From Prorocentrum cordatum (taxonomy: Eukaryota): 54,561 bases of DNA. Made by a program: the position numbers and the translations under genes. Positions 2,361 through 54,400 of this stretch are shown piece after piece. The notes below the pieces were generated by a model, which saw only the letters and a program-made list of their open reading frames with translations, searched no databases and had not been told where the DNA came from. Positions within the stretch are counted from its first letter, which is position 1. The number at the start of each line of letters is the position of its first letter. The stretch is taken from assembly GCA_963575745.1 (NCBI GenBank), contig CAUYUJ010000230.1, positions 62,001-116,561 on the forward strand, in the 5' to 3' direction.

Positions 2361-4028
2361 GATCGTTCAGCAATGCCAATGCCATACCCCGCTTCGATTC
2401 TAGGCCCGCATCTGCGAGTAGATACGGATATGAACAGCAGGCAAGGAGGGGCAGAGGGAATGATATGTGTACGACAGCACCTGTTTTGTCCTCTCCTCTC
2501 CCCTTTCTCTTTTCTCCCACTCCCCTCTCTCTGGAATCTCCGTGCGGATCTGACGTTGTCTCCCTCGAAGCTCCTTGGTTGGGGTCCTTGCAGCCCCCTG
2601 CAGGCTCCTGGACATCCCTGCGCCTTCACAGGCGGGCGTGCAGTGCCAAGGTGCGAGGCGCCCCAGGTGGCGTGCAGACGTCAGGCGCAGGGCCAGGATA
2701 GCCGGCGCCCCTACCCGTGGAGGAGTGCGTCATCCACGTTTGCGGCGTGCTCCCCGACATGAAAGAGGAGTATTCCCTACGCCCTTGTCCTTCTTCTCCT
2801 TCTCCTCCTCCTCCTCCTCATCCTCCACGTGCTCCTACTCCTCGGCCTCATCCTTCTCCTCGTCGTCGTCGTTGTACTCCTCCTCCTCCTCCTCCTCCTC
2901 GTTCCTTCAAGTCTCCTCCACTTCCTCGCCTCATCCCCCTCCTTTTCTCTCATTCCCTTCCCCTCTGCCCCCCCCTCCCCCCTCATGCCCCCGTACCTCC
3001 CTGCTGGTCTCCCTACTCCCCTCCCCCCTGCCACCCTGCCGCCCTCTTACCCCCCCTTCCCTCGGTAGTCCTTCCACTGGCTCGAGGGAGCTCTCTATGG
3101 CCTGGCAGGGCTCGGCCGCGGCCACACGGCCAAGGCAGGGAGTGCGCGCAGCAGCTGGGTCGCAGCTCAGCGACGAGGAGCCGCTTCCCAAGTTGAATGG
3201 GCAGCTGCTCTGGCAGCCGGCAAAACACGCGGATGCGGCCCCCATGTGTGCAGCCATCGCGGCTCGCCAGCTGAAGAGACATGGCAAGCTCAGCGGGGAT
3301 CTCTGCAAGAGGTTGCCAGGGTGGACGAGGCCTTCCTTCCCTCGGTTACCCTGCGCCGCCCGCCCCTCGTCGGCATCCGCATTACCTTCTCAGTGCTTGC
3401 GCTCGCGCTGTTTCACTGCCAGCTTTTGTACATTGGACATTCGACTTGTGGTAGTTCGCGGCGGCGGCACCTACCCACCCCTGTATAATGTTCACAGGCA
3501 GTGCGGGGGCGCGGCCGATGCGGATCGGGGGAGGAGTGCTACGCGTCCTGGGCGACGCCTAACCGGTGTAGTAAACGGTGCTTCCCTCGTCCACCCGTCT
3601 GTTTGCTTCGTCCCGCCGGCTCTGGCTCTCCGTGTGCGCTTTCGCCATCGTTTTTTTTGTTTGGTTTTGTCTTTTTTGTCTCGTTACCTTTCTGTCGAGC
3701 CGTTCCTTAGATCTTGACCAGGAGCGCTCTGGATCCACCATCCCTTCTCGGAGTCTCCAAAGAGGGCGCTGCAATAGGGCCAGCTATGGCAACCTTGGCC
3801 TTGGGCGAGGCTTTCAGCAGCTCCCAAGGCTCTGCCTCGAATGGGCGCGCCTGTTGGCAGATGCTGCGCGCGTGCCGCATGCCGCATGCCGAACGGCTCT
3901 CGCGCGAATTTTCGTTTAGGGCCGCCTTCCCCGCTTCGTCACCCCCTCCCACTCCCCCCCCTCCTCTTTCCGATGATGGCATGTGGAAGAGGAGGAGGGC
4001 GGGTTAAAGGGTGTGGAGGGTCGGAGTG

Positions 4029-41508: not shown

Positions 41509-42034
41509 GACCCGAGGGTTTCTGTCAAAGCTGGGACGCCAGGAGGGCGAGGAGGAGGAGGGGGGATCATTCAGGACAGTTCAGCTACGACTATGTCGAA
41601 GGTGCGCGAGAGAACGCTGGGCAGCGCACCAGCCAGCCTTCGTAGTCTGGCCAGCTCACGGGGTTTCACGAGCCTGCTACGCAAATCGGTTCGGGGGCGG
41701 GTTCACTGACAGTTGATCATGAGGAGGACCCTGAGATCCTGACCTGGCACCTTTTCACATTGGGCGATTTCGCCCTGTTTCGGACCCCAGAGCCATCGCG
41801 GATCGATCTGGCTCGGGGAAGTGTTGCAAAGATGTTGGATGTGGCCTCCCGTTGCGAGGTCGGATCTTGCGCCATGAAGCAAATTTGTCCGGAGTCGAAC
41901 GGGTACTTTAGTTTTACCGAGCTGCTTGCGGCAAGACCGCCACCGTATCAGCCCAGCATTTTGGGTGGCGAGTATTCGAGGGGCGCGAGAGGTTGTCACG
42001 TGTGCTACCTCGTGTCTAGAGGCTTGGCGGAACC

Positions 42035-42620
42035 ATGATGATGGTGATACTGATGTTGTTGCAGATGATGATGATGATCATGATGATGATAATGATGATG
42101 ATGATGCTGATGATGATGATGATGATGATGATGATGGTGGCGATGATGATGATTCTGATTATGATGATGCTGATGATGATGCTGCTGCTGATGATGATGA
42201 TGATGCTGATGACGCTGATCATGCTGATGATGCTGATGCTGATGCTGCTGCTGATGATGATGACAACGATGACGATGCTGATGATGATGATGCTGATGTT
42301 GATGCTGATGCTGTTGATGATGCTGATGATGGTAATGACGACGATGGCGACGAGGACCATGATAACGATGATTGCTATGATGCTGCTCATGCTGATGATT
42401 GTGATGATGCTGAGGATGATGATGCTGCTGAAGATGATGATGATGTACTATGGGGATGATGATGCAGATGAGGGTGAGGATGATGATGATGCTGAGGCTG
42501 CTAATGATCATGATGCTGATGCTGCTGCTGAAACTGATGATGGTGATGAAGGTGACGCTGTTGATGATGCTGATGGTGGTGATGACGACGACGAGGACGA
42601 TGATGACGACGACGATGATG

Positions 42621-42673
<53 letters not shown>

Positions 42674-43568
42674 AATGATGATGATGCTGATGATGATAAT
42701 GCTGATGCTGATGATGATGATGATGAGGATGCTGATGTTGTTGATGATGATGCTCATGATGACGATGACGATGCTGATGCTGATGCTGATGATGATGCTG
42801 ATACTGCTGCTGGTGATACTGAGGATGATGACGATGATGCCGATGATTATGATGATGGTGCTTGTAGCAATGACGACGAGGAGGAGGATGAGCAGGAGGA
42901 GGATGAAGAGCTGATAATACTAGTGATGACGATGGTGGTGATGATAATGCTGCGGCTGATGCTGATAATGCTGATGCTGATGATGGTGAGGTGGTTGAGG
43001 AAGTCGAGCATGCCAATGCTACTGGTACTGGTGCTGATGATGCTGATGCTGATGATGTTGCTGGTGCTGATGCTGATGACGGTGGCGACGATGATGCTGA
43101 TTCTTATGCTGATGATGATACAGCTGCTGCTGATGATGATGATGATGCTGTTGATGATCATGACGATGATGCCGATACTGGTGCCGATGTTGATTCTGTT
43201 ATTGCTGATGGTGAAGATGTCGATTCTGCTTATGATTATGCTGGTGATGGTTTTGGTGATGGTGATGCTGCCGATGATGCTGATGCTGCTGCTGATGATG
43301 ATCCCGATGATGATGCTGATGATGATGATGAGGATGATGATCATGATGATGGTGGCGATGCTGACCATGACGATGCTGCTGATGATGACGCTGCTGGTGA
43401 TGATGATGTTGATGCTACTGCTGTCGCTGATGCTGATGCCGATGCTTCTGATGCTGCTGCTGATGATGATGCGGCTGCTGATGATGATGCTGATGCTGAT
43501 GATGATGATGCTGATGACGATGATGTTGATGCTGATGCTGATGCCGATGATGATGATGATGATGATGC

Positions 43569-43600
<32 letters not shown>

Positions 43601-43965
43601 CTGATGATGATGATGATGCTGATGATGATGATGATGGTGATGGTGATGCGGACCATGATCTTGATGATTGTGCTGCTGTTGCCGATGATGTTACTGATGA
43701 CGATGATGATGGTTAAGGCGATGCTGGTCATGCGGGTGCTGCTGATGCTGGTGATGCTGATGATGATGAGGCTGATGCTTATGCGGATTCTGATCATGAT
43801 GATGATGCTGCTGCTGCTGATCATGATGCTAATGCTGCAGATGATGATGCTGATGATGCTGTTGATGCTGATGCTGATGCTGATGATGATGCTGCTGCGG
43901 CTGTTGACGATGGTGGGGATGACGATGATCCTCAGGATGATGCTGCGAACGAGGATGATGAGGAG
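42035..43965. repeat. Degenerate (GAT/GCT)n tract
   Basis: Visible. Confidence 0.97.
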
Positions 43966-44902
43966 CAGGGCGATAAGGAGGAAGAGGACGGCCGTTACGT
44001 GTGACGCCTTTCGTCTTCAATATTTGTGGAGCCCCGATGGAATTCGTTTTTGACGGTGAGGCAGTTTGGGGGGGCCCTCTTGGGCCGTTTGGGGGCCCTC
44101 TGAGGCTGTCTAAGGATTCGTATGGGGCCGTTTTGTATGAATCTTGGCCTCGAGGGAGGGGTTGTGGCCTCAGGAACGCGACTTTGATGTGATTTTTTAG
44201 GGGTTGTGGTCTCGAGAGTGGGCCATGTATGCATGACTGCGCTGGTAGGGGGGGGGGGCTGGAAGTTTCGAAAACCCGACCAGACACCACTTGGCATTCT
44301 AGCACTCCTCAGCGTGCTCGTGGGCACAGTGGCGGATACGTTGTTGGACTCCAGGGGCCCTTCGTTGGCTTCAGGACCGTAAAACAATAACCCAGGATTA
44401 ATGACCGATGCTGTGGGAGGCCTCCAGGGTCTAGAATCCGTCAGGACCAGTTTGCTTCATGCCACATCTTACGTAGGGGAGGGGGAGGTGACTGGGGAGG
44501 AGGACGGGGAGGGGGGAGGGGAGGGGGAGTCGGGGGAGGAGTACAAGTGGGTCTGCCTAGTGGGCGGGCCTTGTAAAATCAATGGTCACCTCTGTGTCGT
44601 GCCTGTCGCGTTTTGTGTCTTGTGTCTGGAGCACTGACTTCCCTCGAAGAGACTCGTTTCCTCTCGCACTGTCTCTGCAGCCAGTCCCGACTGCAGTCAT
44701 GACGCGCAGTGAATTCCCAATAGCAATCCGCTTGGATTCGGAGAAGAAACACATTTTTTTTGAGGTCCGCGCGGAGTTCTCTGAGCGGCTTCCTGGCGCG
44801 CTTCGCGCGCCAGCGAGGTGTGTTCGGCCGAGGTCGGGTTCGTTTATGAGCGGGCGGGTCATGGCATTTCTTCAAGGTGTGCTTCCTTGGGGGCCCCCCC
44901 AG

Positions 44903-45005
44903 GAGAAGGCGAGCGAGCGGATGGGCGCTCTGTGCTCGGCCGTCGCCAGTGTCATGACCGAGCGTATGAATGAGGGCCGCTCGGTGACCTGGCGGGACCT
45001 CTCAG
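44903..45005 (+). CDS. Probable exon of HPR/OPR-type protein; gene likely continues beyond the LINE
   Basis: cAG|G acceptor; EKASERMGALCSAVASVMTERMNEGRSVTWRDLS(G); CAG|GC donor; in phase with the previous exon. Confidence 0.62.
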
Positions 45006-45469
45006 GCGCCTCGGGGGGCAGCCGACGCTCCTCCTCCTCCTCCCTCCTCCTCCTCCTCCTCCTCCTCCTCCTCCTCCTCCTCCTCCTCCTCCTCCTCCTC
45101 CTCCTCCCTCCTCCTCATCCTCCTCCCTCCCTCCCTCCCTCTCCCTCCCTCCCTCCCAGCCGCCGCCCCGGTTCGAGAGGTTTGGGTGCCGTACCAGGTA
45201 CGGCGACCTCTCCCACGGCGGCAGCCACGCGCGCTGGCCCGCGCCCCAGTCCCGCGCGATCCGCGCCTGGGCGGCCTGCGGCCGGCCGCGCCCGCTCGCG
45301 CAGCCCCCCGCCTGGCCCGCCTGCAGGGCCCGCTGGCGGCGCTGGACCCCACAGGCGCGCGCGCGCCGAGCCCCCGGGGCATCGGCGCGCGCGCCTGAGA
45401 CGGACACAATCGCGTACGCTGCTGCGTGTCGCGGCCGCCGCTCGCCTCCTTGCCGCCCACCACAGTGCA

Positions 45470-45667
45470 ATGGGCAAGGGTCGCGCTGGTGCGACTGGCG
45501 GCACAGCCCCCCCGCCGTGGCAAGGCGCGCCGCCGCCCCCACCGCCAGGCTGGTGGTGCGATGACTGTGGCAGCTTCGACGGCCCGCTGGAGAGGCTTTG
45601 CAGGTGCTGCTACCCAGGCCCGTCGGGCCCAGTCGGGGGAGGCGGCCACGGTGGCTCACCGCAGCAG

Positions 45668-45709
<42 letters not shown>

Positions 45710-47311
45710 GAGCAGCATCCTCGCCGCCGAAGCACGACATCCCCAGGGACGCCAGCCCGCCGACGCTCTTTCTCCCGCCGCCGCAGGCGCGAGCGCGAGA
45801 GGCGAGAGGAGCGGCCGCGGTCAGGCTCACGGGTACGCTTCGCGGACGAGCCCGAGCCAGACCCCGACGGCAACGGCGTCTCGGACGCCGACGAGGAGTT
45901 TCGCAGCCCTGCGCTAGGGATTCTCCCAGCGCTGCCGCAGGAGGCGAGGCTGCACCCTGCGTGGGTTGATCCACCCAGCGACGAGCGTGCCTTGGCGGCG
46001 CACAGGAGGACACTAAGGCAGATTGCCGCTGCGACAGGGAAGCGACTTCAAGCTTCCATCGACCTCGGGGCCTCCGAGGAGATTTTGACAAGTCAGAAGC
46101 TGGAGTACAGTGTCCAGCTGTGCATGATCATCACGGCCCGTGCGCCAGGCGAGCGTTGTGACTGCCAACGTGCATGCGTTGCCAAGGCCCTGGGCAAGTT
46201 CGAGCGTGCCCGCGAGGCGGTCGAGAAGGCGCAGGCACGACTACAAGAGGCAGATGCGAAGTGCACGCAGCGCGAGAAGGAGCACGACAGGGCCAAGATG
46301 CTGCTGGACCAGCTCGAGGCGATGCAGATCGGCCCTGCAGCTGGAGGAGCAGCCGACGACGTGGACATGGGAGCGGACGAGGGCGGCACGCGGACGCCAG
46401 AGGTGGGAGGCGTGGCGCCTCAGACGCCTCAGAGCACGCCCGTGCAGCTGGCGGCCATCGCAGAGCTCCGGAGCGGCCAGGCGACGCTCGCGGCCCAGCT
46501 CAGCAGTTTGACGGCAATGCTGACGACGCTGCAGACCGCGATGGCAGCAGCAAGGACCCCACCAGCTGCTGGCGAGGTCCCCGCCCCTCCTGATGGCGGT
46601 GGCCCGCAGGTCAGGCCCTTCGCAGGCCAGCCCCAGCGCCTGGGCCGCATGCCGACGGCCGAGGAGCTCGCGGCCGCCGCGCCCGCCGCCGCGGCCGCGG
46701 TAGCAAGCCCAGTGGACGGAGCAGCTGACCACGCAGCTGCCGCCAGCGGCTGGCGGCAGCTGCGTGGTCAGCCCAGCGCCAGCCCCAGCGGGCAGCTGCG
46801 TGGGCAGCTGCCCGGTGCGTGGGCTGCCCAGCGGGCAGCCCACGCAGCTGCGTGGGCAGCTGCGTGGTCACCGGCGCGGGGCTGGCGGCCAGCCCCGCGC
46901 CGCCCACGCCCGTGGCTGCTGGCGGTGTGCCTGCGGCGCCTGCAGGGGCTGACGGCGAGGACCTCGCAGCGGCGCGGGCTCGAGCCGCCGCAGCACGCCG
47001 TGCGAAGCGCGAGCAGGAGCGTGCAAGGCGCCCGCCAGGTCAGCCGCTGCTCGTGGACGCCATGGCCAGGCAGCAGCAGCTGGGTGGGCATCGGGGCCGA
47101 GGATGCACCCCGACACCAGCTGGACGCGCTGACATCGCAGCGGAGTTCGGCGACCATGGGGCGGAGGCAGCCGCAAGACGGACGCGGCGCAGCCGTGATC
47201 GCAGCCCCCGCAGGCCCGACGGCTTCGAGATGGTTGGCGGTGCTGGTGCAGAATCGACTGGAGAGTCGACGCTGGGGTGATGCAACAGGGCAGGCGGGCT
47301 GCTGGGGGTGA
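45470..47311 (+). CDS. LINE ORF1 / gag-like protein: RanBP2-type Zn finger, polyQ, coiled coil
   Basis: ATG at 45470 inside ORF 44582-47311. WWCDDCGSFDGPLERLCRCC fits W-x-C-x2-C-x3-(N/D)-x6-C-x2-C. Coiled coil AREAVEKAQARLQEADAKCTQREKEHDRAKMLLDQL. The true C-terminus may shift into frame 46819-47280. Confidence 0.7.
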
Positions 47312-47589
47312 GGTGCCTGCTGCTAGCGCAGCCGACGTTGCATCAGATCCCTTTGTTCGGATGGAGTCCGATCCGACTTTCCCCCCTCGCTCCAGGCCGC
47401 CCTGCCCCATTCCCGATTGTGAGTCTTTTGTGGGGGGCCTGTGTATGCCCTGGCCCTGTGCTCACACGCTAACCTCAGTCTTCTACGGGCCCCAACAGTT
47501 GCCCGACGCCTGCTATTTCCCCCCCTATCTCCATAGTAGCGCACGAACCTTTTTTGAATCCCACGGAGGTGCCCTCCCCCCCCGAGGAC

Positions 47590-48050
47590 GAGGTTATCAT
47601 GTATGAGGTGCGTGCGGACGGATCTGGTGGATCTCGGGTGCAAGTGCCGGGTGGGCCACCATCGTGGGCGTGGTGCATGTACTCAGTGACTGCAACACAA
47701 CAGTACACATGTGCAGGTTATCTATGTGGTGTTGACCCCTCCCTCCTCGACCTGCCAAGTGCATCAGGTGCTGCTGAATTTCAAGCCGCCCTATGGCTAG
47801 TGCCATGGATGTTGCAGGCTCCCAGCAGATTCAGGTCCAGGCCCCATGGAAGTCTTCGCGGACAATATCCTTGTAGTCAGATCGGCCGAAGGCGGAGCGA
47901 ACTACTCGTCGTGTGGGGGCTATCCTGGGATGTTCGATGGGGTGCTGAAGCTTCTCCGCTGTTTTACCACGGTACGTTGGAAACATGTCCTGGGACACAA
48001 TGCCGATCCACGGAACGAGCTTGCAGATGCCATCGCACATTTAGCCTACA
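47590..48050 (+). CDS. RNase H domain at the N-terminus of ORF2, split by a frameshift near 47842-47845
   Basis: YEVRADGS..SWAW..AAEFQAA (frame 47554) continues into EVFADN..WKHVLGHNADPRNELADAIA (frame 47846): the D-E-D-H-D RNase HI signature. Confidence 0.85.
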
Positions 48051-51000
48051 TGGGCCTGGCACCGACGGTGCCCGACGACTTTCAACCGTGGTCTGCGCTA
48101 GGAGGCGCCGCCGCCGCTGCTATGCCCTGGTTGCGGATGTCAGCTGTTGCCAACGCCAGCGACGGTCAAGGGGCATGCCCGAAAGTTGGCGTGGATGAAG
48201 TGCCCAGCATATGTCCACCTCTCTTAGATCCCCGTTGCGCGTTCTCGCCGCATGCAGGACTCAGCTCGGAAAGTAAAGACACCGTCCATTCGCCCTCCAG
48301 TTCAGGTCTACATGCCTCTGTCAGGTTTGCAGTGGCCAATGTCCTCACGTTACGGCCCAGGAGGAAAGCAGCACGGAAGGGAGACAGGATGCGAATACGA
48401 TGTCGGTACCAGGACGCAGCAGGACTGGATACCCCTGGGCGCATGCTATCCTTGGCGTACTTGTTCGATGCGCGACAGTTTCTCTTTATCGGCACGCTTG
48501 AGACTAGAATGGGACGCAATGGATGGACGCCAGCCGCTCAGTATCTCGTGCTCACCACAGCCGCTGAACAGAAGGGTGCAGGAGGGGTAGCGTTGTGGGT
48601 GCACGCAGGTATTCAGTACGTGCGTGGTTGTACGCTTGCTCGCCGCCATCTCCGTGTTCTCAGCTTTGCCTCCCACCATCTTCTTGTTGCTGTGCGTGCG
48701 CCACATCTGTGCGTCGACATATTGGTTGGGCATGCTCCGCGCTCCAGACGTGACAGCGCCGAGGTTGATGAGTGGTGGGTAAGTATCGAACGCATTCTGC
48801 GCCAGCGCCCGCATCCCGCACCCCTGTACTGTTTGTTGGATGCCAATGCTACTCTGGGCTCCAGGGTCTCGGAACATGTTGGCGAGGTTGCCGCCGAAAA
48901 CGAGAACCACGCCGGTGCACGTTTCCATCAGTTTTTGCAAACCACGGGACAAATTGCCCAGTCCACGATGTTACCCTCGGCTTCTGGGGTCCACGGTACC
49001 TGGCTTCCCCCTGGGGCTCAAGGGACGGACCCGCGGCATCGCATTGACTACGTCACTGTCCCGTGCGGACAGCTATCGTGCGTTACACGACAGTCAGTGG
49101 AAGTGGATCTTGATCTCTCTTTGCGTAGTGGTGATCATTTTGTGGTGTCGGCAGATGTGCATGTGTACCCATCCCTGCCATATCAGCACGCACACACGTG
49201 GTCCCGTTTACGAGTGGACGAAGCGAAGTACAACGATCCAGAGTGTTGTGCCGCATTCGTGCGTGAGCTTGAGTCAGCGCCTCAGTCCGCCGACTCATCC
49301 CACCCGGACGACCATGCCGACCACTTGAGCCAGCACATTTTGCGTGCAGCCCAGGTTGCTTTCCCGCCCAGCGTTTCAGACACTGGCCGACAGGCCAAAC
49401 ATTGTTGGATATCCAAGGGATCCCTGGACCTGATGGACCTAAGAACTCAAGGACGCGCGGCCCTTCGGGCCCTTCGGTCACAACTGTCCCGCCTGCTCCT
49501 CACGTGTGTGTTCACTGCTTGGGCCACCGACGGTGCTGAGAGTGGCGCTCGGTTTTGCCATCGGACTTTGAGTTGGTTTCATTCATGGCGCGAGGGCCCA
49601 TCTCACTACCCAATACTGTGTGTATGCCGAGCTATCGCGAAGGCTACGGACACAGTCGTGGACTGCGCCGCCCCGTTTACCCTGCCCCTACGCAGCCCAA
49701 CAGACAAGTATACCTACCCACCGTTCAACCAAGACCACTTAGTGGGACTCAGATACTTTGCCCGCCTACCCACCACCCCCGAACTACTTTGCCCACCGAC
49801 AGGACTCTGGTTCCAACTGGGAGCCATACTGAGTTTTTGCCAAGGGTGGATGGGATTTTACTGGGCCGCCAGCTACATATTTCTGCGCGCTGCCACGGGA
49901 TTCGATTCCACATGGCATTGCGCTGCCATTGCCAAGGGAGTCAAAAGCGCGTGGGACCGACGGCAGTTTGCAGAGGCTTACTCGGCTTTGCGACGTATCG
50001 GGGCAGGGTCCAAAAGGCGCAATATTGATTGGGTTCTCCCAGCACTACGTGACATCACGGGACAGCCTCTTGTGTCGGAGCGTGCAGTTGCCCAGCGATG
50101 GCAACAGCACTTTGCCAGCCTAGAGCTCGGGGCCACGTTCGCTATGGAAGATATCCCCCACATAGCAGGGCATGTCGGACGCACGCCGTATGCAGGCATG
50201 CCGACCGATGCCCCAATCTCGCCGGCTGCAATCCCGACGCTCTCCGATTTCCAGTGGTCTTGCCGACAAGCCCGTCGATCGGCCCCAGGTTGTGACGGGA
50301 TCCCTGGAGGCCTGGTGCGGGCGTGCCCTGCTGCCGTCGCTACATACTACTACCCACTCCAACTCAAGTTTTCCCTGACACTAGTGGAGCCCATTCAGTG
50401 GAAGGGTGGTTTTTACAGGGATATTATCAAGTCGGGTCAAGCGGATCCGACACAATGCCTCAGCTCCAGGTCTATTCTTGTCTCGTCCCAGATAGGAAAG
50501 GCGTCTCGGCGGTGCATACGGAAACAACTACTCCCCTTCCTCGCCCAGGAAGCAGGCGAAACCCAGTTCGGGGGCCTCCCAGGCCGCGGCACAGCCCATG
50601 CATCCCTTATACTACGTACTGCACAGGCTTTAGCACGACGGCGCAACACGAGTTTTGGAGCCCTGTTTATGGACGTGGTGCAAGCTTTCTATCGGGCCAT
50701 ACGACAGCTCGTCATACGTGCGTGCCATGAGACCGAGCTCGACGACGATGCAGTTGCGACGTTGGTGCGAGCAGCCGGACTACCACCTTCCGTGATGCCT
50801 CAGCTTGCCCAGAGACTCAGTGAGCAGCCCGCGGCTCTCAACAACTCTGACGTTGACCGACATGTGGTGGCCCAGGTTGGCCAATGCTACCAGGCCCCCT
50901 GGTTTGTCTGCGAAGGGTCCGACCAGGTATCGTTCCCACAGAGATCCTTCTTTCCTGGGCAGCCCCTAGCCGACGTTCTATTTGAGCTACAAATGGCCGA

Positions 51001-51169
51001 CTGTATGAAGGACGTCCGCACCCAGCTTACAGAGCAAGGTTATGCCCATCTTCTCCCGCCACCAACAGGTCGCTGGCAGCATTACTGCCCGCCGACCCGT
51101 CTGAACTACCACAAGCCACTCTACCACTACTCGATATTTCGTATGCAGATGATGGGACCATCATCCTAA
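47846..51169 (+). CDS. ORF2 part 1: RNase H C-terminal half, AP (EEP) endonuclease and N-terminal part of reverse transcriptase
   Basis: APE motifs ANVLTL, GTLETR, GGVALWV, GHAP, LLDANA, TW, RIDYV, GDHFVV. RT motifs APGCDGIP, RSILVSS..GK, QFGG..GRG, LFMDVVQAFY, PGQPLADVLF. Confidence 0.92.
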   Translation: MEVFADNILVVRSAEGGANYSSCGGYPGMFDGVLKLLRCFTTVRWKHVLGHNADPRNELADAIAHLAYMGLAPTVPDDFQPWSALGGAAAAAMPWLRMSAVANASDGQGACPKVGVDEVPSICPPLLDPRCAFSPHAGLSSESKDTVHSPSSSGLHASVRFAVANVLTLRPRRKAARKGDRMRIRCRYQDAAGLDTPGRMLSLAYLFDARQFLFIGTLETRMGRNGWTPAAQYLVLTTAAEQKGAGGVALWVHAGIQYVRGCTLARRHLRVLSFASHHLLVAVRAPHLCVDILVGHAPRSRRDSAEVDEWWVSIERILRQRPHPAPLYCLLDANATLGSRVSEHVGEVAAENENHAGARFHQFLQTTGQIAQSTMLPSASGVHGTWLPPGAQGTDPRHRIDYVTVPCGQLSCVTRQSVEVDLDLSLRSGDHFVVSADVHVYPSLPYQHAHTWSRLRVDEAKYNDPECCAAFVRELESAPQSADSSHPDDHADHLSQHILRAAQVAFPPSVSDTGRQAKHCWISKGSLDLMDLRTQGRAALRALRSQLSRLLLTCVFTAWATDGAESGARFCHRTLSWFHSWREGPSHYPILCVCRAIAKATDTVVDCAAPFTLPLRSPTDKYTYPPFNQDHLVGLRYFARLPTTPELLCPPTGLWFQLGAILSFCQGWMGFYWAASYIFLRAATGFDSTWHCAAIAKGVKSAWDRRQFAEAYSALRRIGAGSKRRNIDWVLPALRDITGQPLVSERAVAQRWQQHFASLELGATFAMEDIPHIAGHVGRTPYAGMPTDAPISPAAIPTLSDFQWSCRQARRSAPGCDGIPGGLVRACPAAVATYYYPLQLKFSLTLVEPIQWKGGFYRDIIKSGQADPTQCLSSRSILVSSQIGKASRRCIRKQLLPFLAQEAGETQFGGLPGRGTAHASLILRTAQALARRRNTSFGALFMDVVQAFYRAIRQLVIRACHETELDDDAVATLVRAAGLPPSVMPQLAQRLSEQPAALNNSDVDRHVVAQVGQCYQAPWFVCEGSDQVSFPQRSFFPGQPLADVLFELQMADCMKDVRTQLTEQGYAHLLPPPTGRWQHYCPPTRLNYHKPLYHYSIFRMQMMGPSS

Positions 51170-52809
51170 TCATGCCTGCGAGCCAGCTGTATGACGGACT
51201 CAGCCGAGTTCTTGGATGTGTTTCCGAGGCGTTTGCCACCCGAGGACACAAATTCAACCTGGGACCATCCAAAACGGCTGCTTTGATTTCGTGGCGCGGA
51301 CCCGGATCAAAAAAGGCTAGGCATGCTGCGTGGCACGAATGCGGAGGACTCATTGTGAGCGACTCGGGCCTCCTGGGGCGGATCCAGGCACCCATCGTGC
51401 ACAACTACATCCATTTGGGGTCGGTGTTCGATGCGGGAGGTGTCATGACTCCAGAGAAACGTTGCCGGTCGTCGTCGTCGGTCGCCTCCCTGCAAGTGCT
51501 ACGACGACGGGTGTTTGCCGCAGACGAGTTGGATGTGAGAGAGCGCCTTATTCTTGCAGACAGTCTCGTCATGTCCAGTCGTCTGTGCAATGCAGGGGCT
51601 TGGCCAGCCCTCACTCGTGCCGAAGCACACCTCATACACGTTGGGGTCATGAAGGTGTATCGTGCAGCAGCCCGTGTCAGTTATCGAGAGGACAGTTCAC
51701 AGGTATCAGACCAGTTGGTCCTGGCACGTTTGCGACGACCATCTCCAGACATGATCCTACGGGCCGCCAGACTTCGGCTACTTGGGCCCCTGGCCCATAC
51801 AGGTCCCGCGGTCGTTTTCGGGCTCGTTGCGGCCGAGTGGCACGCAGCCGTCGTTACGAACACACAGAATCGGACTATCCTGGGACTTTGGTACGATGAT
51901 CTCGGTTGGCTACAACAGGCGCTCCCCGCACTGGGTGATTTACCTCTGCCAGCCGACGACTTTGCAGCACCATGGGAGTCGCGTATTCGTCGCAGTCAGC
52001 CAGCACGGAAGCGCATAATCCAGGCTGGTTTACATGCACACGCACAGCATGCAGCACGTGTGACGTTGGCGCAGCATGTTGAACGACAGTTCTTTGCCGT
52101 GGTGAAGCCAGTCGGAGTGCCCGACCGAATCTACACTAACGAGCGCGGGCTCATCGTGGATCCCCCACCCCAGGCAGCACATCCCACGCATATATGTCCG
52201 TGGTGCGGCACACAATACTCACGACATCGAGCCCTTCGGACACACATCGCGCGCGCACATCGACAGCTGTCAACACTCGCAAAGGGATATGCATGCCCTA
52301 GCGGTACATGCACTACGTGCCTAACTAAGTTCTACGCTCGGGCGCACCTAGTGGACCATCTATCAGTGGGATCACCACGGTGCCTACTTGTGTGTTTGCT
52401 ACAGACCGACAACCCAGCCCACCACCTGCAGCCACAACCCATCACCCAGCCACCGGGCACTACCGCCCAAGTGCGTATACCCCGACGGCACGTGGTTGTG
52501 CCCACTACCAAGGCGGCCGGCCCACTAACCGAGGAGGCCGCGAACTACCTCCACCTTTCACAGCAGGAAGCACGCATGGCCATACTGGAGGCTGATCCCT
52601 ATCTCACCGATGACGCCCGAGCAGCCTTCATACCACCGCCAGAGCCTATGCTAGGATTAGATGATGTGGATGCCGAACCCTACCCACCTGTCCAGACAAC
52701 GATACCCAGCCCGCATGTTCCTACCCGACCAGTATACAGGCCTGGCAGCACAGGCATTACCTGTGGCCATCAAGAAGGCCGAGTATCACGTCCTCAACTT
52801 GTTTTGTGA
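51060..52809 (+). CDS. ORF2 part 2: RT catalytic YADD, thumb and Zn fingers, after a frameshift near 51050-51070
   Basis: The frame of ORF 51172-52809 reads upstream as LPLLDISYADDGTIILIM, then GHKFNLGPSKTA and YIHLG. It contains the C2H2 finger CPWC..LRTHIARAH and CTTC..HLVDHL. Confidence 0.9.
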
Positions 52810-54079
52810 ACGTCGGAGGCCAGAGGACATTCAGGCATGTTTAGAGTGGGCACACTACGACGTTGATTTCACAGTCTCGGTCCTGTCCATAGACATTGCT
52901 ATTGACCCTGTCCTTGGGAACTTGATGCGACCCCAGACCTTGGAGGTTTGGAAGGAACACATCCGAGCGCGCAGGGTGGCCCTCTCTGGAGGTGGGCCTC
53001 CCTGCGAAACCTGGTCAGCCATCCGATGGGCTCGGAACATGGGGCCCCCACCACTGCGGTCCCACGACGATTTCTGGGGCATGCTTGCCATTACACCGCG
53101 TCAGATGGAGCAGGTACGTGTTGGCAACGAGCTACTAGGAGCCATGATAGGACTTTTTGCCCTTCACCTAGCCGTAGGCACATGTTGTTGGATGGAGCAT
53201 CCAGTACCAGCGTCGTGGCGACAAGAGGCCGTGAGCTCATTCTTGTGCCCACCCTTGCGCGCGATCATGGCATCACCTGCGGCCTCTACCACCGACTTCG
53301 ATCAGCGCGAACACGGACAATGTGCTCGCGCGCCTACACGGATATTGGTTTTGAGGATGTGTACGCTGCATGGTCGCCTTTTGGAAACGCTTGGTCGCGG
53401 ACGGTGCTCACACGGACAGAACGCCCACGAAGTGCTCATGGGTTTCGACGGTCAAACGAGGGAATGGCGGACGGCCAAAAAGAAGACATACCCCCCCGCG
53501 CTTTGTCATGTATTGGCCGACGGTATAGTGGATGCAGTCAATCATATGCGTGTGACGAGCGGTCCGCAGGCATGGCCAGAGGACATGGGGGAGGAGGAAG
53601 AGGCACTCCGTGGGGCACTAGAGGCCTTTTACGTTGCTTGGGACCCATATCTAGGCACGAACGAGGACTGGGCCCCCGATTTCGTAGGAGCTACGACGCG
53701 ACGTCTGCGCGCCGATCCTGCAAGCTCCAGGTTCTCACCACCCGAGCTCACAAGGGAAAGGCCAGATGCCGACGTACCCGCGCCGTCGCTCGTGCATGAC
53801 CCCAGTGCCACTCCTCGGCAGGCAGGGCCTGCTGAGGCAGACGAAGAGCAGGAATACGCAGACGCCACTGCCTTTCTAGAAGGCGCAGCGGCTCCGTCAC
53901 ATGTTGCACCTACTTCCGCCCCCCCTCCTTTGCCTACTCCAGTCCAGCTCACGGATGCACAGCGCGAGATGATTCAACACAAACGCGCTGAGGCCAGAGA
54001 CAGACGTAAGGCGCGCCTTGCTGCACGCATTGCTCCATGGACGTTGCAGCCAAATTTCGGCAGCGGCATCCTGGGCTAA
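52661..54079 (+). CDS. C5 cytosine DNA methyltransferase domain (about 52780-53530), probably the frameshifted C-terminus of ORF2
   Basis: Ordered motifs: I VLNLFCE (FxG variant), II/III SIDI..GNL, IV GGPPCETWS (PC at 53000-53005), GNELL, VI MEHP, VIII DQREHG..APTRIL, X KTYPPALCHVLA. Confidence 0.85.
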   Translation: MMWMPNPTHLSRQRYPARMFLPDQYTGLAAQALPVAIKKAEYHVLNLFCERRRPEDIQACLEWAHYDVDFTVSVLSIDIAIDPVLGNLMRPQTLEVWKEHIRARRVALSGGGPPCETWSAIRWARNMGPPPLRSHDDFWGMLAITPRQMEQVRVGNELLGAMIGLFALHLAVGTCCWMEHPVPASWRQEAVSSFLCPPLRAIMASPAASTTDFDQREHGQCARAPTRILVLRMCTLHGRLLETLGRGRCSHGQNAHEVLMGFDGQTREWRTAKKKTYPPALCHVLADGIVDAVNHMRVTSGPQAWPEDMGEEEEALRGALEAFYVAWDPYLGTNEDWAPDFVGATTRRLRADPASSRFSPPELTRERPDADVPAPSLVHDPSATPRQAGPAEADEEQEYADATAFLEGAAAPSHVAPTSAPPPLPTPVQLTDAQREMIQHKRAEARDRRKARLAARIAPWTLQPNFGSGILG

Positions 54080-54084
54080 GTAGA

Positions 54085-54400
54085 AGGATGGATGGAGGTT
54101 AGTCAGTGGGTCAAGTGGGGCAGGTTGGATCCCGAGAGAGGGAGCTTCCTCCCCCCTGTTTTGCTCTCTCACTGCCAGCCGCTATCCCTCTTGCCGCAAT
54201 GAAGTTGTCTATGTGGTGTTGACCCCTACCACCCGACCCACCAGTTTTGCCAAATCTGTCGGAGGCGGCTGTTTTCAAGCATGCCGCCATGGCTAGTGCC
54301 ATGGATGTTGCAGGTACAGCGGGTTCAGGTCCAGGCCCCTAGAATACTGGCTTGTGGGGACCACACTGGGAGTTTCGAAGGGGCGCTGAATTTTTCTGGC
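54085..54400 (+). repeat. Degenerate direct copy of the element's RNase H coding region (about 47615-47960)
   Basis: Exact blocks: 54208-54227 = 47721-47740 (20 nt), 54289-54314 = 47793-47818 (26 nt), 54324-54339 = 47830-47845 (16 nt). Weaker similarity of 54345-54397 to 47901-47955. Confidence 0.88.

What the first reader, a model, noticed from the sequence alone, without database searches (positions are those of the whole stretch)
47590..49160. RNase H placed N-terminal to the AP endonuclease
Seen: a complete RNase HI signature precedes APE and RT. Known: in RNase H-bearing LINEs (I group, some plant L1) the domain lies after RT, as it does in the decayed LINE at 16.7-21.4 kb in this window. 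Inference: RNH-APE-RT-ZnF-DNMT reflects an independent RNase H capture and an unusual five-module polyprotein.
Basis: partly seen in the sequence, partly recalled or inferred. Interest (0 to 1): 0.7.

Follow-up and report, generated by a model that had tools for sequence, protein, structure and literature searches.

The report
RNase H upstream of endonuclease, dinoflagellate LINE
This is a slightly broken copy of a very large family of jumping genes from coral-symbiont algae in which the RNA-removing enzyme RNase H sits in front of the DNA-nicking enzyme instead of behind the copying enzyme, an unusual but family-wide gene layout.

Summary
Observation confirmed. Window 47599-48046 encodes a type 1 RNase H (RNH), split by one frameshift in a C-run at about 47842-47846. 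An AP-type endonuclease (APE, 48302-49180), RT, two zinc fingers and a cytosine-methyltransferase-fold (DNMT-like) module follow on the same strand. Two more frame changes make this copy dead as written.

The RNH is not a neighbouring element. Of 109 related APE units with at least 250 aa upstream, 108 carry the RNH, about 60 aa before APE. Of 80 metagenome loci, 39 show RNH-APE-RT-ZnF-DNMT-like in that order, 21 as one open frame. D-E-D-D plus His is kept in 101 of 109 RNH domains, and RNH and RT divergence correlate (rho 0.51). A profile of the domain hits E. coli RNase HI (1.9e-11). A close intact relative folds as RNase H (pLDDT 88).

"Five modules" is incomplete: 14 of the 21 open frames add 1011-2175 conserved residues of unknown function before the RNH. 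Independent capture is plausible but untested; I had only one canonical LINE RNH for comparison. The DNMT-like module lies after RT, unlike the published SymbioLINE-Dnmt (DNMT in ORF1), and Pfam does not detect it. My searches found no printed description of RNH before APE. Figure 1e of de Mendoza 2018 could not be seen. Earlier scan notes report other LINE families in this genome.

The parts
47599..47844 (+). RNase H, N-terminal half (frame 1). Starts at an ATG directly before strand 1 (MYEVRADGS) and holds catalytic Asp (ADGS) and Glu (AAEF).
   Evidence: Family RNH profile hit 47614-47835, E 1.9e-05. Aligned with 15 relatives in A2.
47842..47846 (+). Frameshift site 1: a run of four C. One base too many relative to the continuous frame of relatives.
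   Evidence: Frames. Read-through with one four-letter step gives a continuous RNase H. One contig of run X1 lacks 1 base at 47846.
47846..48046 (+). RNase H, C-terminal half (frame 2): second Asp (FADN), His and last Asp (LGHNADPRNELAD).
   Evidence: Family profile 47840-48046, E 2.8e-10. PF00075 weak, profile positions 112-138.
48047..48301 (+). Linker between RNase H and APE, about 85 aa.
   Evidence: Lies between the two profile hits. Relatives have a median of 60 aa, range 0-117.
48302..49180 (+). AP-type endonuclease (Exo_endo_phos fold), with motifs ANVLTL, TLETR, LLDANA, RIDYV, SGDHF.
   Evidence: Family profile E 1e-95. PF03372 passes its cut-off in relatives P0001, P0002, P0266, P0272 and hits 7 of 14 full-length relatives at E<=0.01.
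49904..51166 (+). Reverse transcriptase, first part (frame 2), including FMDVVQAF (motif A).
   Evidence: E 1.3e-152, own-family profile. A3 profile hits human L1 ORF2p RT at 1.4e-12 and R2 at 4.8e-12.
51056..51106 (+). Approximate place of the second frame change (frame 2 to frame 1) inside RT.
   Evidence: The open frames 47801-51169 and 50986-52809 overlap. Relatives' alignments leave one frame at about query 385 and enter the other at about query 40. Inferred, not pinpointed.
50986..52149 (+). Reverse transcriptase, second part (frame 1), with SYADDG (motif C) and the thumb-side region.
   Evidence: E 3.4e-145.
52189..52366 (+). Two zinc fingers (C2H2, then a C2HC-like one).
   Evidence: PF00096 E 0.0006, 20.6 bits, below the 25.2 cut-off, aa 402-425 of the frame. 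Cys/His columns are invariant in 14 relatives. C2H2 proteins of PDB hit profile positions 1455-1543.
52661..52754 (+). Approximate place of the third frame change (frame 1 to frame 2), between the zinc fingers and the DNMT-like module.
   Evidence: Frames 50986-52809 and 52661-54079 overlap. In relatives both modules lie in one frame. Inferred.
52775..53563 (+). Cytosine-5 methyltransferase-like fold, with GGGPPCETWS (motif IV-like) and EHP (motif VI-like). The frame stays open to the stop at 54079.
   Evidence: Model of the window frame with 8 relatives: pLDDT 63.6. All 50 best VIA rows are C5 methyltransferases, Z 8.8-10.1, over model residues about 39-301. Foldseek E 7e-04. Not found by PF00145 or by PDB sequence profiles.
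54204..54339 (+). Adjacent fragment, about 135 nt. It is a second, degenerate copy of the RNase H coding stretch 47717-47845 and is probably not part of this element.
   Evidence: two exact words of 20 and 26 nt, 0 expected by chance. blastn 76% over 140 nt. No such fragment lies after the DNMT-like module in 0 of 34 related loci.
44561..47311 (+). 916-codon open frame upstream (low complexity, coiled-coil-like stretch). Not shown to belong to the element.
   Evidence: No Pfam hit. No match to any N-terminal region of relatives. G+C is 0.71-0.75 against 0.58 in the element. In such G+C-rich DNA, long open frames occur on both strands.

Best explanation
Window 47.6-54.1 kb is one copy of a very large LINE (non-LTR retrotransposon) family of Symbiodiniaceae dinoflagellates. 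Three frame changes disable it. The family's polyprotein reads RNase H, AP-endonuclease, reverse transcriptase, two zinc fingers and, in a subset, a cytosine-methyltransferase-like module.

The RNase H is an integral, old and probably active part of the element. It sits about 60-85 residues before the endonuclease.

Mechanism (inferred from what is established for APE-type LINEs):
1. The endonuclease nicks the target DNA.
2. RT copies the element RNA from the nick (target-primed reverse transcription).
3. The element's own RNase H removes the RNA strand of the RNA:DNA hybrid so that the second DNA strand can be made. The element therefore does not depend on host RNase H.

Placing the module at the 5' side rather than behind RT is most simply explained by a separate acquisition at the 5' end of ORF2. 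This last step is inference.
For: Shown:
- RNase H identity. The profile of 15 relatives plus the window halves hits E. coli RNase HI at 1.9e-11 and human RNase H1 at 2e-07. 16 of 17 rows hit PF00075 at E<=0.01. The model of the closest intact relative has pLDDT 88 and pTM 0.86, and its best folds are all type 1 RNase H at prob 1.00.
- Linkage in proteins. 4127 library proteins match at E<=0.001. In the best 150 plus 2 others, architectures were RNH-APE-RT-ZNF 50, RNH-APE-RT 46, RNH-APE-RT-ZNF-DNMT 25, double unit 1 and RNH-APE 1; the other 29 are N-terminally short. 108 of 109 APE units with at least 250 aa upstream carry the RNH, 102 nearly full length.
- Pfam with curated cut-offs gives the same order in gene models. 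P0266 has RNH 50-200 and APE 281-504. P0272 has RNH 797-940 and APE 1040-1251.
- Linkage on DNA. 39 of 80 loci have all modules in order on one strand, 21 as one open frame.
- Selection. D-E-D-D plus His is kept in 101 of 109 domains.
- Co-descent. RNH and RT distance matrices correlate, Spearman 0.51, n=105; the highest of 500 label permutations was 0.13. Mean divergence is the same, 0.706 and 0.704.
- In a tree, 33 family RNH rows form one side of a branch (SH-aLRT 98). The one canonical C-terminal LINE RNH lies on the other side.
- Named sources: Symbiodinium sp. CCMP2592, Cladocopium sp. Y103 and an S. kawagutii-style gene model name.
Against: - The window copy itself cannot make the protein as written. 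It has three frame changes, and its RNH fails Pfam's cut-off (16.8 against 25.8 bits).
- The RNH profile was iterated on the same upstream segments it was then counted on. Its identity was checked separately, but the count of 108 of 109 is not blind.
- Only the best 150 of 4127 relatives were seen.
- One unit with room (P0056) has no RNH hit. Two of 80 loci (L017, L027) have APE with more than 1.5 kb upstream and no RNH hit.
- No activity, expression or target-site duplication was shown. No RNA run was listed.
- The role in second-strand synthesis and the capture at the 5' end are inference.
- The RT clade was not assigned: human L1 ORF2p and R2 score alike.
Confidence: 0.85

Rival explanations
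1. The RNase H belongs to a separate, adjacent element or host gene and only happens to lie in front of the LINE's endonuclease in this window.
For: There is a frame change between the two RNH halves and a G+C break just upstream. A stray RNH fragment also lies at 54204-54339, so pieces of this domain do occur out of context.
Against: 108 of 109 related APE units have the RNH at a fixed distance. 39 of 80 loci carry it in order, 21 in one open frame with APE and RT. RNH and RT co-diverge.
Confidence: 0.02
2. The N-terminal domain is an RNase H-derived structural module without nuclease activity, like the connection domain of retroviral RT. The element relies on host RNase H.
For: No activity was measured. 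Pfam scores are low in many members. 8 of 109 domains lack one of the catalytic residues or have a gap there. The model shows no separate helix for a basic protrusion.
Against: D-E-D-D plus His is kept in 101 of 109 domains at about 30% mean identity. That is hard to explain without selection on catalysis. The window copy keeps all five residues.
Confidence: 0.08
3. The order arose by moving the family's own C-terminal RNase H to the front (internal rearrangement), not by a new capture.
For: Both are PF00075-type domains with the conserved His. The tree has only one canonical LINE comparator and long branches.
Against: None of the 152 relatives or 80 loci has an RNH behind RT. The single canonical LINE RNH groups with stand-alone RNase HI proteins, away from the family, at SH-aLRT 98.
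Confidence: 0.15
4. The three frame changes are programmed recoding or assembly errors, and this copy is in fact functional.
For: There is no in-frame stop inside any of the four segments over 6.5 kb. The first shift lies in a homopolymer. A related contig has one base less there.
Against: Relatives read the same junctions in one frame, so recoding is not a family trait. The X1 contigs are 90-99% alike and so are other copies, not this locus. Three independent shifts are typical of a decaying copy.
Confidence: 0.15

Closest known systems
RNase H-bearing APE-type LINEs (I, LOA, Tad1, R1, Ingi groups; names recalled, not from a call). Example met here: protein P0277.
   Same: Endonuclease of the Exo_endo_phos fold, LINE-type RT and a PF00075-type RNase H with the D-E-D-D residues and the conserved His. 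The presumed role is removing the RNA template.
   Different: In those elements the RNH follows RT. P0277 reads APE 65-284, RT 615-835, RNH 1240-1376, zf-RVT. Here it precedes APE. In the tree, the P0277 RNH lies apart from the family.
SymbioLINE-Dnmt of Symbiodinium (de Mendoza et al. 2018, PMC5890265; passages and figure legends read, figure not visible)
   Same: LINEs of the same host group with Exo_endo_phos and RVT_1 that carry a cytosine methyltransferase. Hundreds of copies, many broken.
   Different: The paper places the DNMT in an ORF1 upstream of the RT-encoding ORF and finds it with PF00145. Here the DNMT-like module lies after RT and the zinc fingers in the same frame: 30 of 30 DNMT-bearing proteins and 39 of 39 full loci. 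PF00145 does not see it in 0 of 9 and 0 of 14 sequences. The text read does not mention an RNase H in the LINE.
Plant and oomycete L1 elements with a captured archaeal-like RNase H (Smyshlyaev et al. 2013; Ustyantsev et al. 2017; seen only as entries in the reference list of PMC5890265, content recalled)
   Same: A precedent for LINEs gaining an RNase H independently of the I-group.
   Different: There the domain is of the RVT_3 type and follows RT (recalled). Here 16 of 17 rows hit PF00075 and 1 hits RVT_3, and the domain is upstream of APE.
E. coli RNase HI and human RNase H1 catalytic domain (nearest solved structures)
   Same: Fold and catalytic residues.
   Different: They are stand-alone or HBD-linked cellular enzymes. 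The model of the relative shows no separate helix C or basic protrusion (not examined further).
Human LINE-1 ORF2p (nearest solved RT, E 1.4e-12)
   Same: An APE-then-RT core for target-primed reverse transcription.
   Different: L1 ORF2p has no RNase H, no C2H2 fingers and no methyltransferase. The R2 RT scores about the same (4.8e-12), so the clade is unassigned.

Membership tests
Type 1 RNase H (Pfam PF00075) | RNase H fold (five-stranded sheet with flanking helices) | tested here: met
   Model of the closest intact relative (P0110 segment, 38% identical to the window): pLDDT 88. The best Foldseek matches are all RNase HI/H1, prob 1.00. The window copy itself was not folded.
Type 1 RNase H (Pfam PF00075) | Catalytic Asp-Glu-Asp-Asp, plus the conserved His | tested here: met
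   The window has ADGS, AAEF, FADN, GH and NELAD in the aligned columns. The family keeps them in 101 of 109 domains.
Type 1 RNase H (Pfam PF00075) | Score above Pfam's gathering cut-off (25.8 bits) | tested here: not met
   The window read-through scores 16.8 bits. Relatives pass: P0025 48.4, P0268 30.6, P0272 28.9, P0266 27.3 bits. The family profile against PDB gives RNase HI at 1.9e-11.
Type 1 RNase H (Pfam PF00075) | Uninterrupted reading frame | tested here: not met
   One frame change at 47842-47846 in the window. The frame is intact in relatives.
APE-type LINE (non-LTR retrotransposon) | Exo_endo_phos endonuclease followed by a LINE-type RT on one strand | tested here: met
APE-type LINE (non-LTR retrotransposon) | 5'-truncated copies that keep the 3' end | tested here: inconclusive
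   10 of 80 loci have more than 1.5 kb of upstream DNA but start with a later module. All loci were fetched through a motif of the 3' module, so the sample is biased.
APE-type LINE (non-LTR retrotransposon) | Target-site duplications and defined 5'/3' ends of this copy | not tested
   No close copy of the window's subfamily with flanks was available; all loci are 26-36% identical.
I-group style RNH LINEs (RNH behind RT) | Order APE-RT-RNH | tested here: not met
   The order is RNH-APE-RT in the window and in 123 of 152 relatives. There is no RNH behind RT in any.
SymbioLINE-Dnmt (de Mendoza 2018) | DNMT encoded in ORF1, upstream of the RT-encoding ORF | tested here: not met
   The DNMT-like module is downstream of RT and the zinc fingers. 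None lies upstream of RNH within flanks of up to 8 kb.
SymbioLINE-Dnmt (de Mendoza 2018) | DNMT recognised by PF00145 | tested here: not met
   0 of 9 at E<=1 and 0 of 14 at E<=0.01.
Cytosine-5 methyltransferase fold (fifth module) | Fold similar to M.HhaI/DNMT3A over the whole catalytic domain | tested here: met
   VIA Z 8.8-10.1, 175-212 residues aligned, rmsd 3.5-5.2, and all 50 rows are C5 methyltransferases. Model confidence is only middling, pLDDT 63.6.
Cytosine-5 methyltransferase fold (fifth module) | Pro-Cys catalytic motif and a SAM-binding FxGxG motif | tested here: inconclusive
   PPC is invariant in 9 rows. The motif I region reads LFSGRRR in the consensus and LFCERRR in the window, so the glycine pattern is not kept. 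Naming of the motifs is from recall.

The most novel reading that the evidence does not exclude
These elements form an undescribed LINE lineage of Symbiodiniaceae. Its single giant reading frame (up to about 3800-4080 codons) joins four things:
- a conserved N-terminal region of about 1000-2200 aa with no known fold;
- a separately captured, catalytically intact RNase H in front of the endonuclease;
- the RT and zinc fingers;
- a cryptic cytosine-methyltransferase-fold module at the C-terminus that Pfam-based surveys miss.

If so, dinoflagellate LINEs gained RNase H at least twice, at opposite ends of ORF2, and gained methyltransferases in at least two positions.
Probability: 0.4. Interest if true: 0.65.

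Novelty: new variant of a known kind. Interest (0 to 1): 0.5.

Why it matters
LINE domain order is treated as nearly fixed: endonuclease, RT, then optional RNase H. A family with thousands of diverged members that keeps an apparently active RNase H in front of the endonuclease shows that the module works from the other side of the polymerase. It also gives a natural test case for how RNA removal is coupled to nicking and second-strand synthesis.

It also bears on TE annotation in Symbiodiniaceae genomes. These proteins score poorly in Pfam, and their C-terminal methyltransferase-like module is invisible to PF00145. Counts of retrotransposon-borne DNMTs and RNase H genes in these genomes may therefore be incomplete.

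For this window alone the result is ordinary: one dead copy.

Tried and rejected
- The window's own genome is not held, so no copy census in the source genome was possible.
- Word-indexed protein searches gave little: 2 hits with the window frame and 17 with the full-length profile.
- Single-sequence searches of the window's APE-RT and DNMT-like frames against PDB gave nothing useful.
- The DNMT-like profile A4 against PDB sequences gave 0 hits at E<=1.
- Pfam on the window frames gave only weak RNase_H and zf-C2H2 hits.
A badly decayed or unrelated LINE could still be there.
- Tandem-array reading (DNMT as ORF1 of a next element followed by its RNH) was rejected. No RNH lies after the DNMT-like module in any locus, and 0 of 34 loci repeat RNH sequence downstream.
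- The ORF1-like frame 44561-47311 was not linked to the element.
- ESM Atlas look-ups gave no usable lead.
- Sequencing runs: no RNA holder was listed. The best holder has 0.32 of the words, only short contigs of related copies, and no cover at 47400-47533.
- CpG observed/expected in the element is 0.88 against 0.79 in the rest of the window, so no depletion was seen.
- First tree: two short 'stand-alone' proteins (P0167, P0170) were family fragments, which blurred the groups. For the second tree I left out P0167, P0170, P0231, P0254, P0184 and the family rows P0126 and P0072 (long branches).
- Literature: seven searches in all. One search was the initial DNMT-retrotransposon search that found de Mendoza 2018. 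None of the seven found a description of RNase H upstream of APE in a LINE. In the paper opened from the listing, all passages on RNH concerned RT-RNH order.
- The one supplementary file of PMC5890265 held as text had no occurrence of RNase_H, Exo_endo_phos or SymbioLINE. Its figures are not held.
Full report
WHAT IS IN THE WINDOW

On the + strand, four overlapping open frames follow one another:
- 47473-48198 (frame 1);
- 47801-51169 (frame 2, 1122 codons);
- 50986-52809 (frame 1);
- 52661-54079 (frame 2).

Read by eye and by alignment, they hold an RNase H (RNH) split between the first two frames, then an AP-type endonuclease (APE), a reverse transcriptase (RT) split between the second and third frames, two zinc fingers, and a module with a Pro-Pro-Cys motif.

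Pfam alone sees almost none of this. It gives a weak RNase_H hit (E 0.082) and a weak zf-C2H2 hit (E 0.0006), both below their cut-offs. The family is far from the Pfam seeds, so I worked with relatives.

RELATIVES AND THE LINKAGE TEST

- A word-indexed search found two relatives. One is named Symbiodinium sp. CCMP2592. Both already show an RNase H-like stretch before the endonuclease.
- An exhaustive HMMER search with the 1122-codon frame found 4127 cluster representatives at E<=0.001 and 619 at E<=1e-30. The best 150 were returned.
- From the 330 residues upstream of each APE unit I iterated a profile, seeded with the intact relative P0110.
- Of 109 APE units with at least 250 residues upstream, 108 hit the profile, 102 over at least 120 of its 154 positions. 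Of 19 shorter ones, 16 hit. The domain ends a median of 60 residues (0-117) before APE. The only miss with room was P0056.
- With own profiles for every module, the 152 proteins sort as follows:
  - RNH-APE-RT-ZNF: 50
  - RNH-APE-RT: 46
  - RNH-APE-RT-ZNF-DNMT: 25
  - APE-RT: 10
  - RT only: 7
  - APE-RT-ZNF: 5
  - APE-RT-ZNF-DNMT: 5
  - APE only: 2
  - a double unit: 1
  - RNH-APE: 1
- No protein has an RNH behind RT or a DNMT-like module before the RNH.

The count is not blind, because the profile was trained on the segments it was then counted on. I therefore checked what the profile is by other routes.

IS IT AN RNASE H?

- An alignment of 15 relatives and the two window halves (A2) has Asp, Glu, Asp, His, Asn-Glu and a mostly kept final Asp as its conserved columns. 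The window has all of them.
- As a profile it hits E. coli RNase HI at 1.9e-11, human RNase H1 at 2e-07 and retroviral RNase H at about 1e-04.
- 16 of its 17 rows hit PF00075 at E<=0.01.
- A model of the P0110 segment with that alignment has pLDDT 88 and pTM 0.86, with the beta-beta-beta-alpha-beta-alpha-alpha-beta-alpha order. Its best structural matches are RNase HI/H1 of bacteria, archaea and human, all at probability 1.00.
- Pfam with its curated cut-offs gives the same order in whole gene models:
  - P0266: RNase_H 50-200, Exo_endo_phos 281-504.
  - P0272: RNase_H 797-940, Exo_endo_phos 1040-1251.
  - P0268: RNase_H 293-446, RVT_1 1114-1208.
- A profile of 14 full-length relatives (A3) hits, in this order along the profile:
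  - RNase HI at positions 82-240;
  - L1 ORF2p and R2 RT at 683-1002;
  - C2H2 fingers at 1455-1543.

THE WINDOW'S OWN COPY

- The family profile, built without the window, hits 47614-47835 (E 1.9e-05) and 47840-48046 (E 2.8e-10) in two frames.
- The change of frame falls in a run of four C at 47842-47845.
- Reading that run as one four-letter step gives a continuous 170-residue product.
- That product aligns to P0110 across the break (38% over 159 residues, E 1e-21) and scores 76.1 bits against the family profile.
- It still reaches only 16.8 bits on PF00075.
- One short contig of a public run, from a related copy, has one base less at 47846.
- The frame starts with an ATG at 47599, directly before the first strand. 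In this subfamily the RNH therefore seems to open ORF2.
- Two further frame changes lie inside RT (about 51.06-51.11 kb) and between the fingers and the last module (about 52.66-52.75 kb). They are inferred from where relatives' alignments leave one frame and enter the next.
- As written the copy is dead. Whether any of the three shifts is an assembly error could not be tested.

DNA-LEVEL CONFIRMATION

A scan of metagenome contigs with the full-length profile used a motif of the last module and returned 80 loci. All loci therefore contain that module.

- 39 loci have hits of all six profiles in the order RNH, APE, RT (two parts), ZnF, DNMT-like on one strand. In 21 of them all hits lie in one uninterrupted frame.
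- Of the 4 other loci with an APE hit, 2 are cut by the contig end. The other 2 (L017, L027) have more than 1.5 kb upstream without an RNH hit.
- 10 loci with room upstream begin with a later module, as 5'-truncated LINE copies do.
- In flanks of up to 8 kb, no locus has an RNH after the last module or a DNMT-like module before the RNH on the same strand.
- All loci are only 26-36% identical to the window copy. The window's own subfamily was not sampled.

AGE AND SELECTION

- D-E-D-D plus His is kept in 101 of 109 nearly full-length RNH domains. One column had to be corrected for a local misalignment of the reference row.
- Pairwise distances of RNH and RT across 105 proteins correlate (Spearman 0.51). 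The highest of 500 label permutations was 0.13. Both domains have the same mean divergence, 0.706 and 0.704.
- The RNH has therefore travelled with the RT through the diversification of at least this part of the family.

ORIGIN OF THE RNH

- The nearest short proteins in the word-indexed collection are about 200-residue prokaryote-type RNase H proteins. Some are named ribonuclease HI or RNase H family protein of uncultured bacteria. That search is biased by its word filter.
- After I left out seven rows (listed under Tried and rejected), 33 family rows including the window form one side of a branch (SH-aLRT 98). The single canonical C-terminal LINE RNH I had (P0277) lies with 30 stand-alone proteins on the other side.
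- This fits a separate capture but does not show it. There were no I, LOA, Tad1 or plant L1 references and no eukaryotic RNase H1, and several branches are long.
- Earlier notes of this scan (unchecked by me) report other LINE families in the same genome with a circularly permuted, RVT_3-type RNH at the C-terminus. If that holds, two different RNH solutions coexist in one genome.

THE OTHER MODULES

- The last module is not recognised by PF00145 (0 of 9 at E<=1; 0 of 14 at E<=0.01) or by PDB sequence profiles.
- A model of the window frame with 8 relatives (pLDDT 63.6) matches cytosine-5 methyltransferases. Foldseek gives E from 7e-04. VIA Z is 8.8-10.1 over model residues about 39-301, and all 50 listed rows are C5 methyltransferases. 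I call it DNMT-like.
- De Mendoza et al. 2018 (PMC5890265; passages, legends and methods read; figures not held) describe SymbioLINE-Dnmt with the DNMT in an ORF1 upstream of the RT-encoding ORF, found with PF00145.
- The arrangement here is the opposite. Either this is another DNMT-bearing LINE family or the two descriptions need reconciling. I could not decide.
- 14 of the 21 single frames carry 1011-2175 further residues before the RNH. These residues are conserved at about 25-69% among copies right up to the RNH and have no Pfam hit. In most intact relatives the RNH is therefore internal, not N-terminal, and the polyprotein has more than five parts.
- The window has no trace of that region.
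- The 916-codon frame at 44561-47311 lies in DNA of 71-75% G+C, against 58% in the element, and matched nothing.

HOW IT MOST LIKELY WORKS

Shown: a LINE with endonuclease, RT and a conserved, apparently catalytic RNase H in one protein.

Inferred from the established mechanism of APE-type LINEs (target-primed reverse transcription):
1. The endonuclease nicks the target.
2. RT extends the nick on the element RNA.
3. The RNH degrades the RNA of the hybrid, which frees the first strand for second-strand synthesis without host RNase H.

Why the module is at the 5' side is open. A gain at the 5' end of ORF2 is the simplest reading, for instance by template switching at the end of reverse transcription followed by in-frame fusion. 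No result here tests it.

NOVELTY

Seven full-text searches found no description of an RNase H upstream of the endonuclease in a LINE. One search was the initial search that located de Mendoza 2018.

The figure of de Mendoza 2018 that draws the ORF2 domains could not be seen, and Repbase is not searchable here. Since Pfam does call RNase_H before Exo_endo_phos in some public gene models, the order may already be implicit in existing annotations.

I rate it a new variant of a known kind, of moderate interest. The window copy itself is an ordinary dead copy.

Noticed in passing
window 54204-54339: About 135 nt lying 125 nt after the stop of the DNMT-like frame repeat the RNase H coding stretch 47717-47845. 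They share exact words of 20 and 26 nt (0 expected by chance) and have small indels. Similarity stops on both sides. None of 34 related loci has such a fragment. A contig of run X1 carries this variant, so it is itself repeated. It may be a remnant of a neighbouring or nested copy.
   Followed up: partly
loci L016, L019, L021, L031, L032, L049, L055, L056, L061, L062, L064, L066, L068, L069 (frames listed): Intact relatives are single open frames of 2911-4079 codons. A conserved 1011-2175 aa region of unknown function precedes the RNase H. It has no Pfam hit in the 5 frames scanned (L019, L021, L066, L061, L016) and no ESM Atlas lead for the one frame tried (L019).
   Followed up: partly
window 52661-54079 and A4: The C-terminal module has a cytosine-5 methyltransferase fold (Z about 10) with an invariant Pro-Pro-Cys, but PF00145 does not detect it. 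Pfam-based counts of retrotransposon DNMTs would miss it. Its position after RT differs from the published ORF1 position.
   Followed up: partly
window 42020-44050 and 45000-45120, 45660-45720: Long simple repeats: 9-15 nt periodic ATG/GAT-rich arrays giving poly-Met/Asp/Ile frames, and CTC/GGA and CAG runs. They lie just upstream of the element. G+C jumps to 0.72-0.75 at 45-47 kb.
   Followed up: no
protein P0072 and its cluster: A 3272-residue member (RNH at 1294-1439, DNMT-like at 2969-3228) recurs nearly unchanged on many contigs of about 11.9 kb from different sources: 19 cluster members, 8 of them of 3270-3272 residues. This suggests a young, possibly active subfamily. Its RNH lacks the Glu and the last Asp in my alignment.
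   Followed up: no
   Followed up: partly
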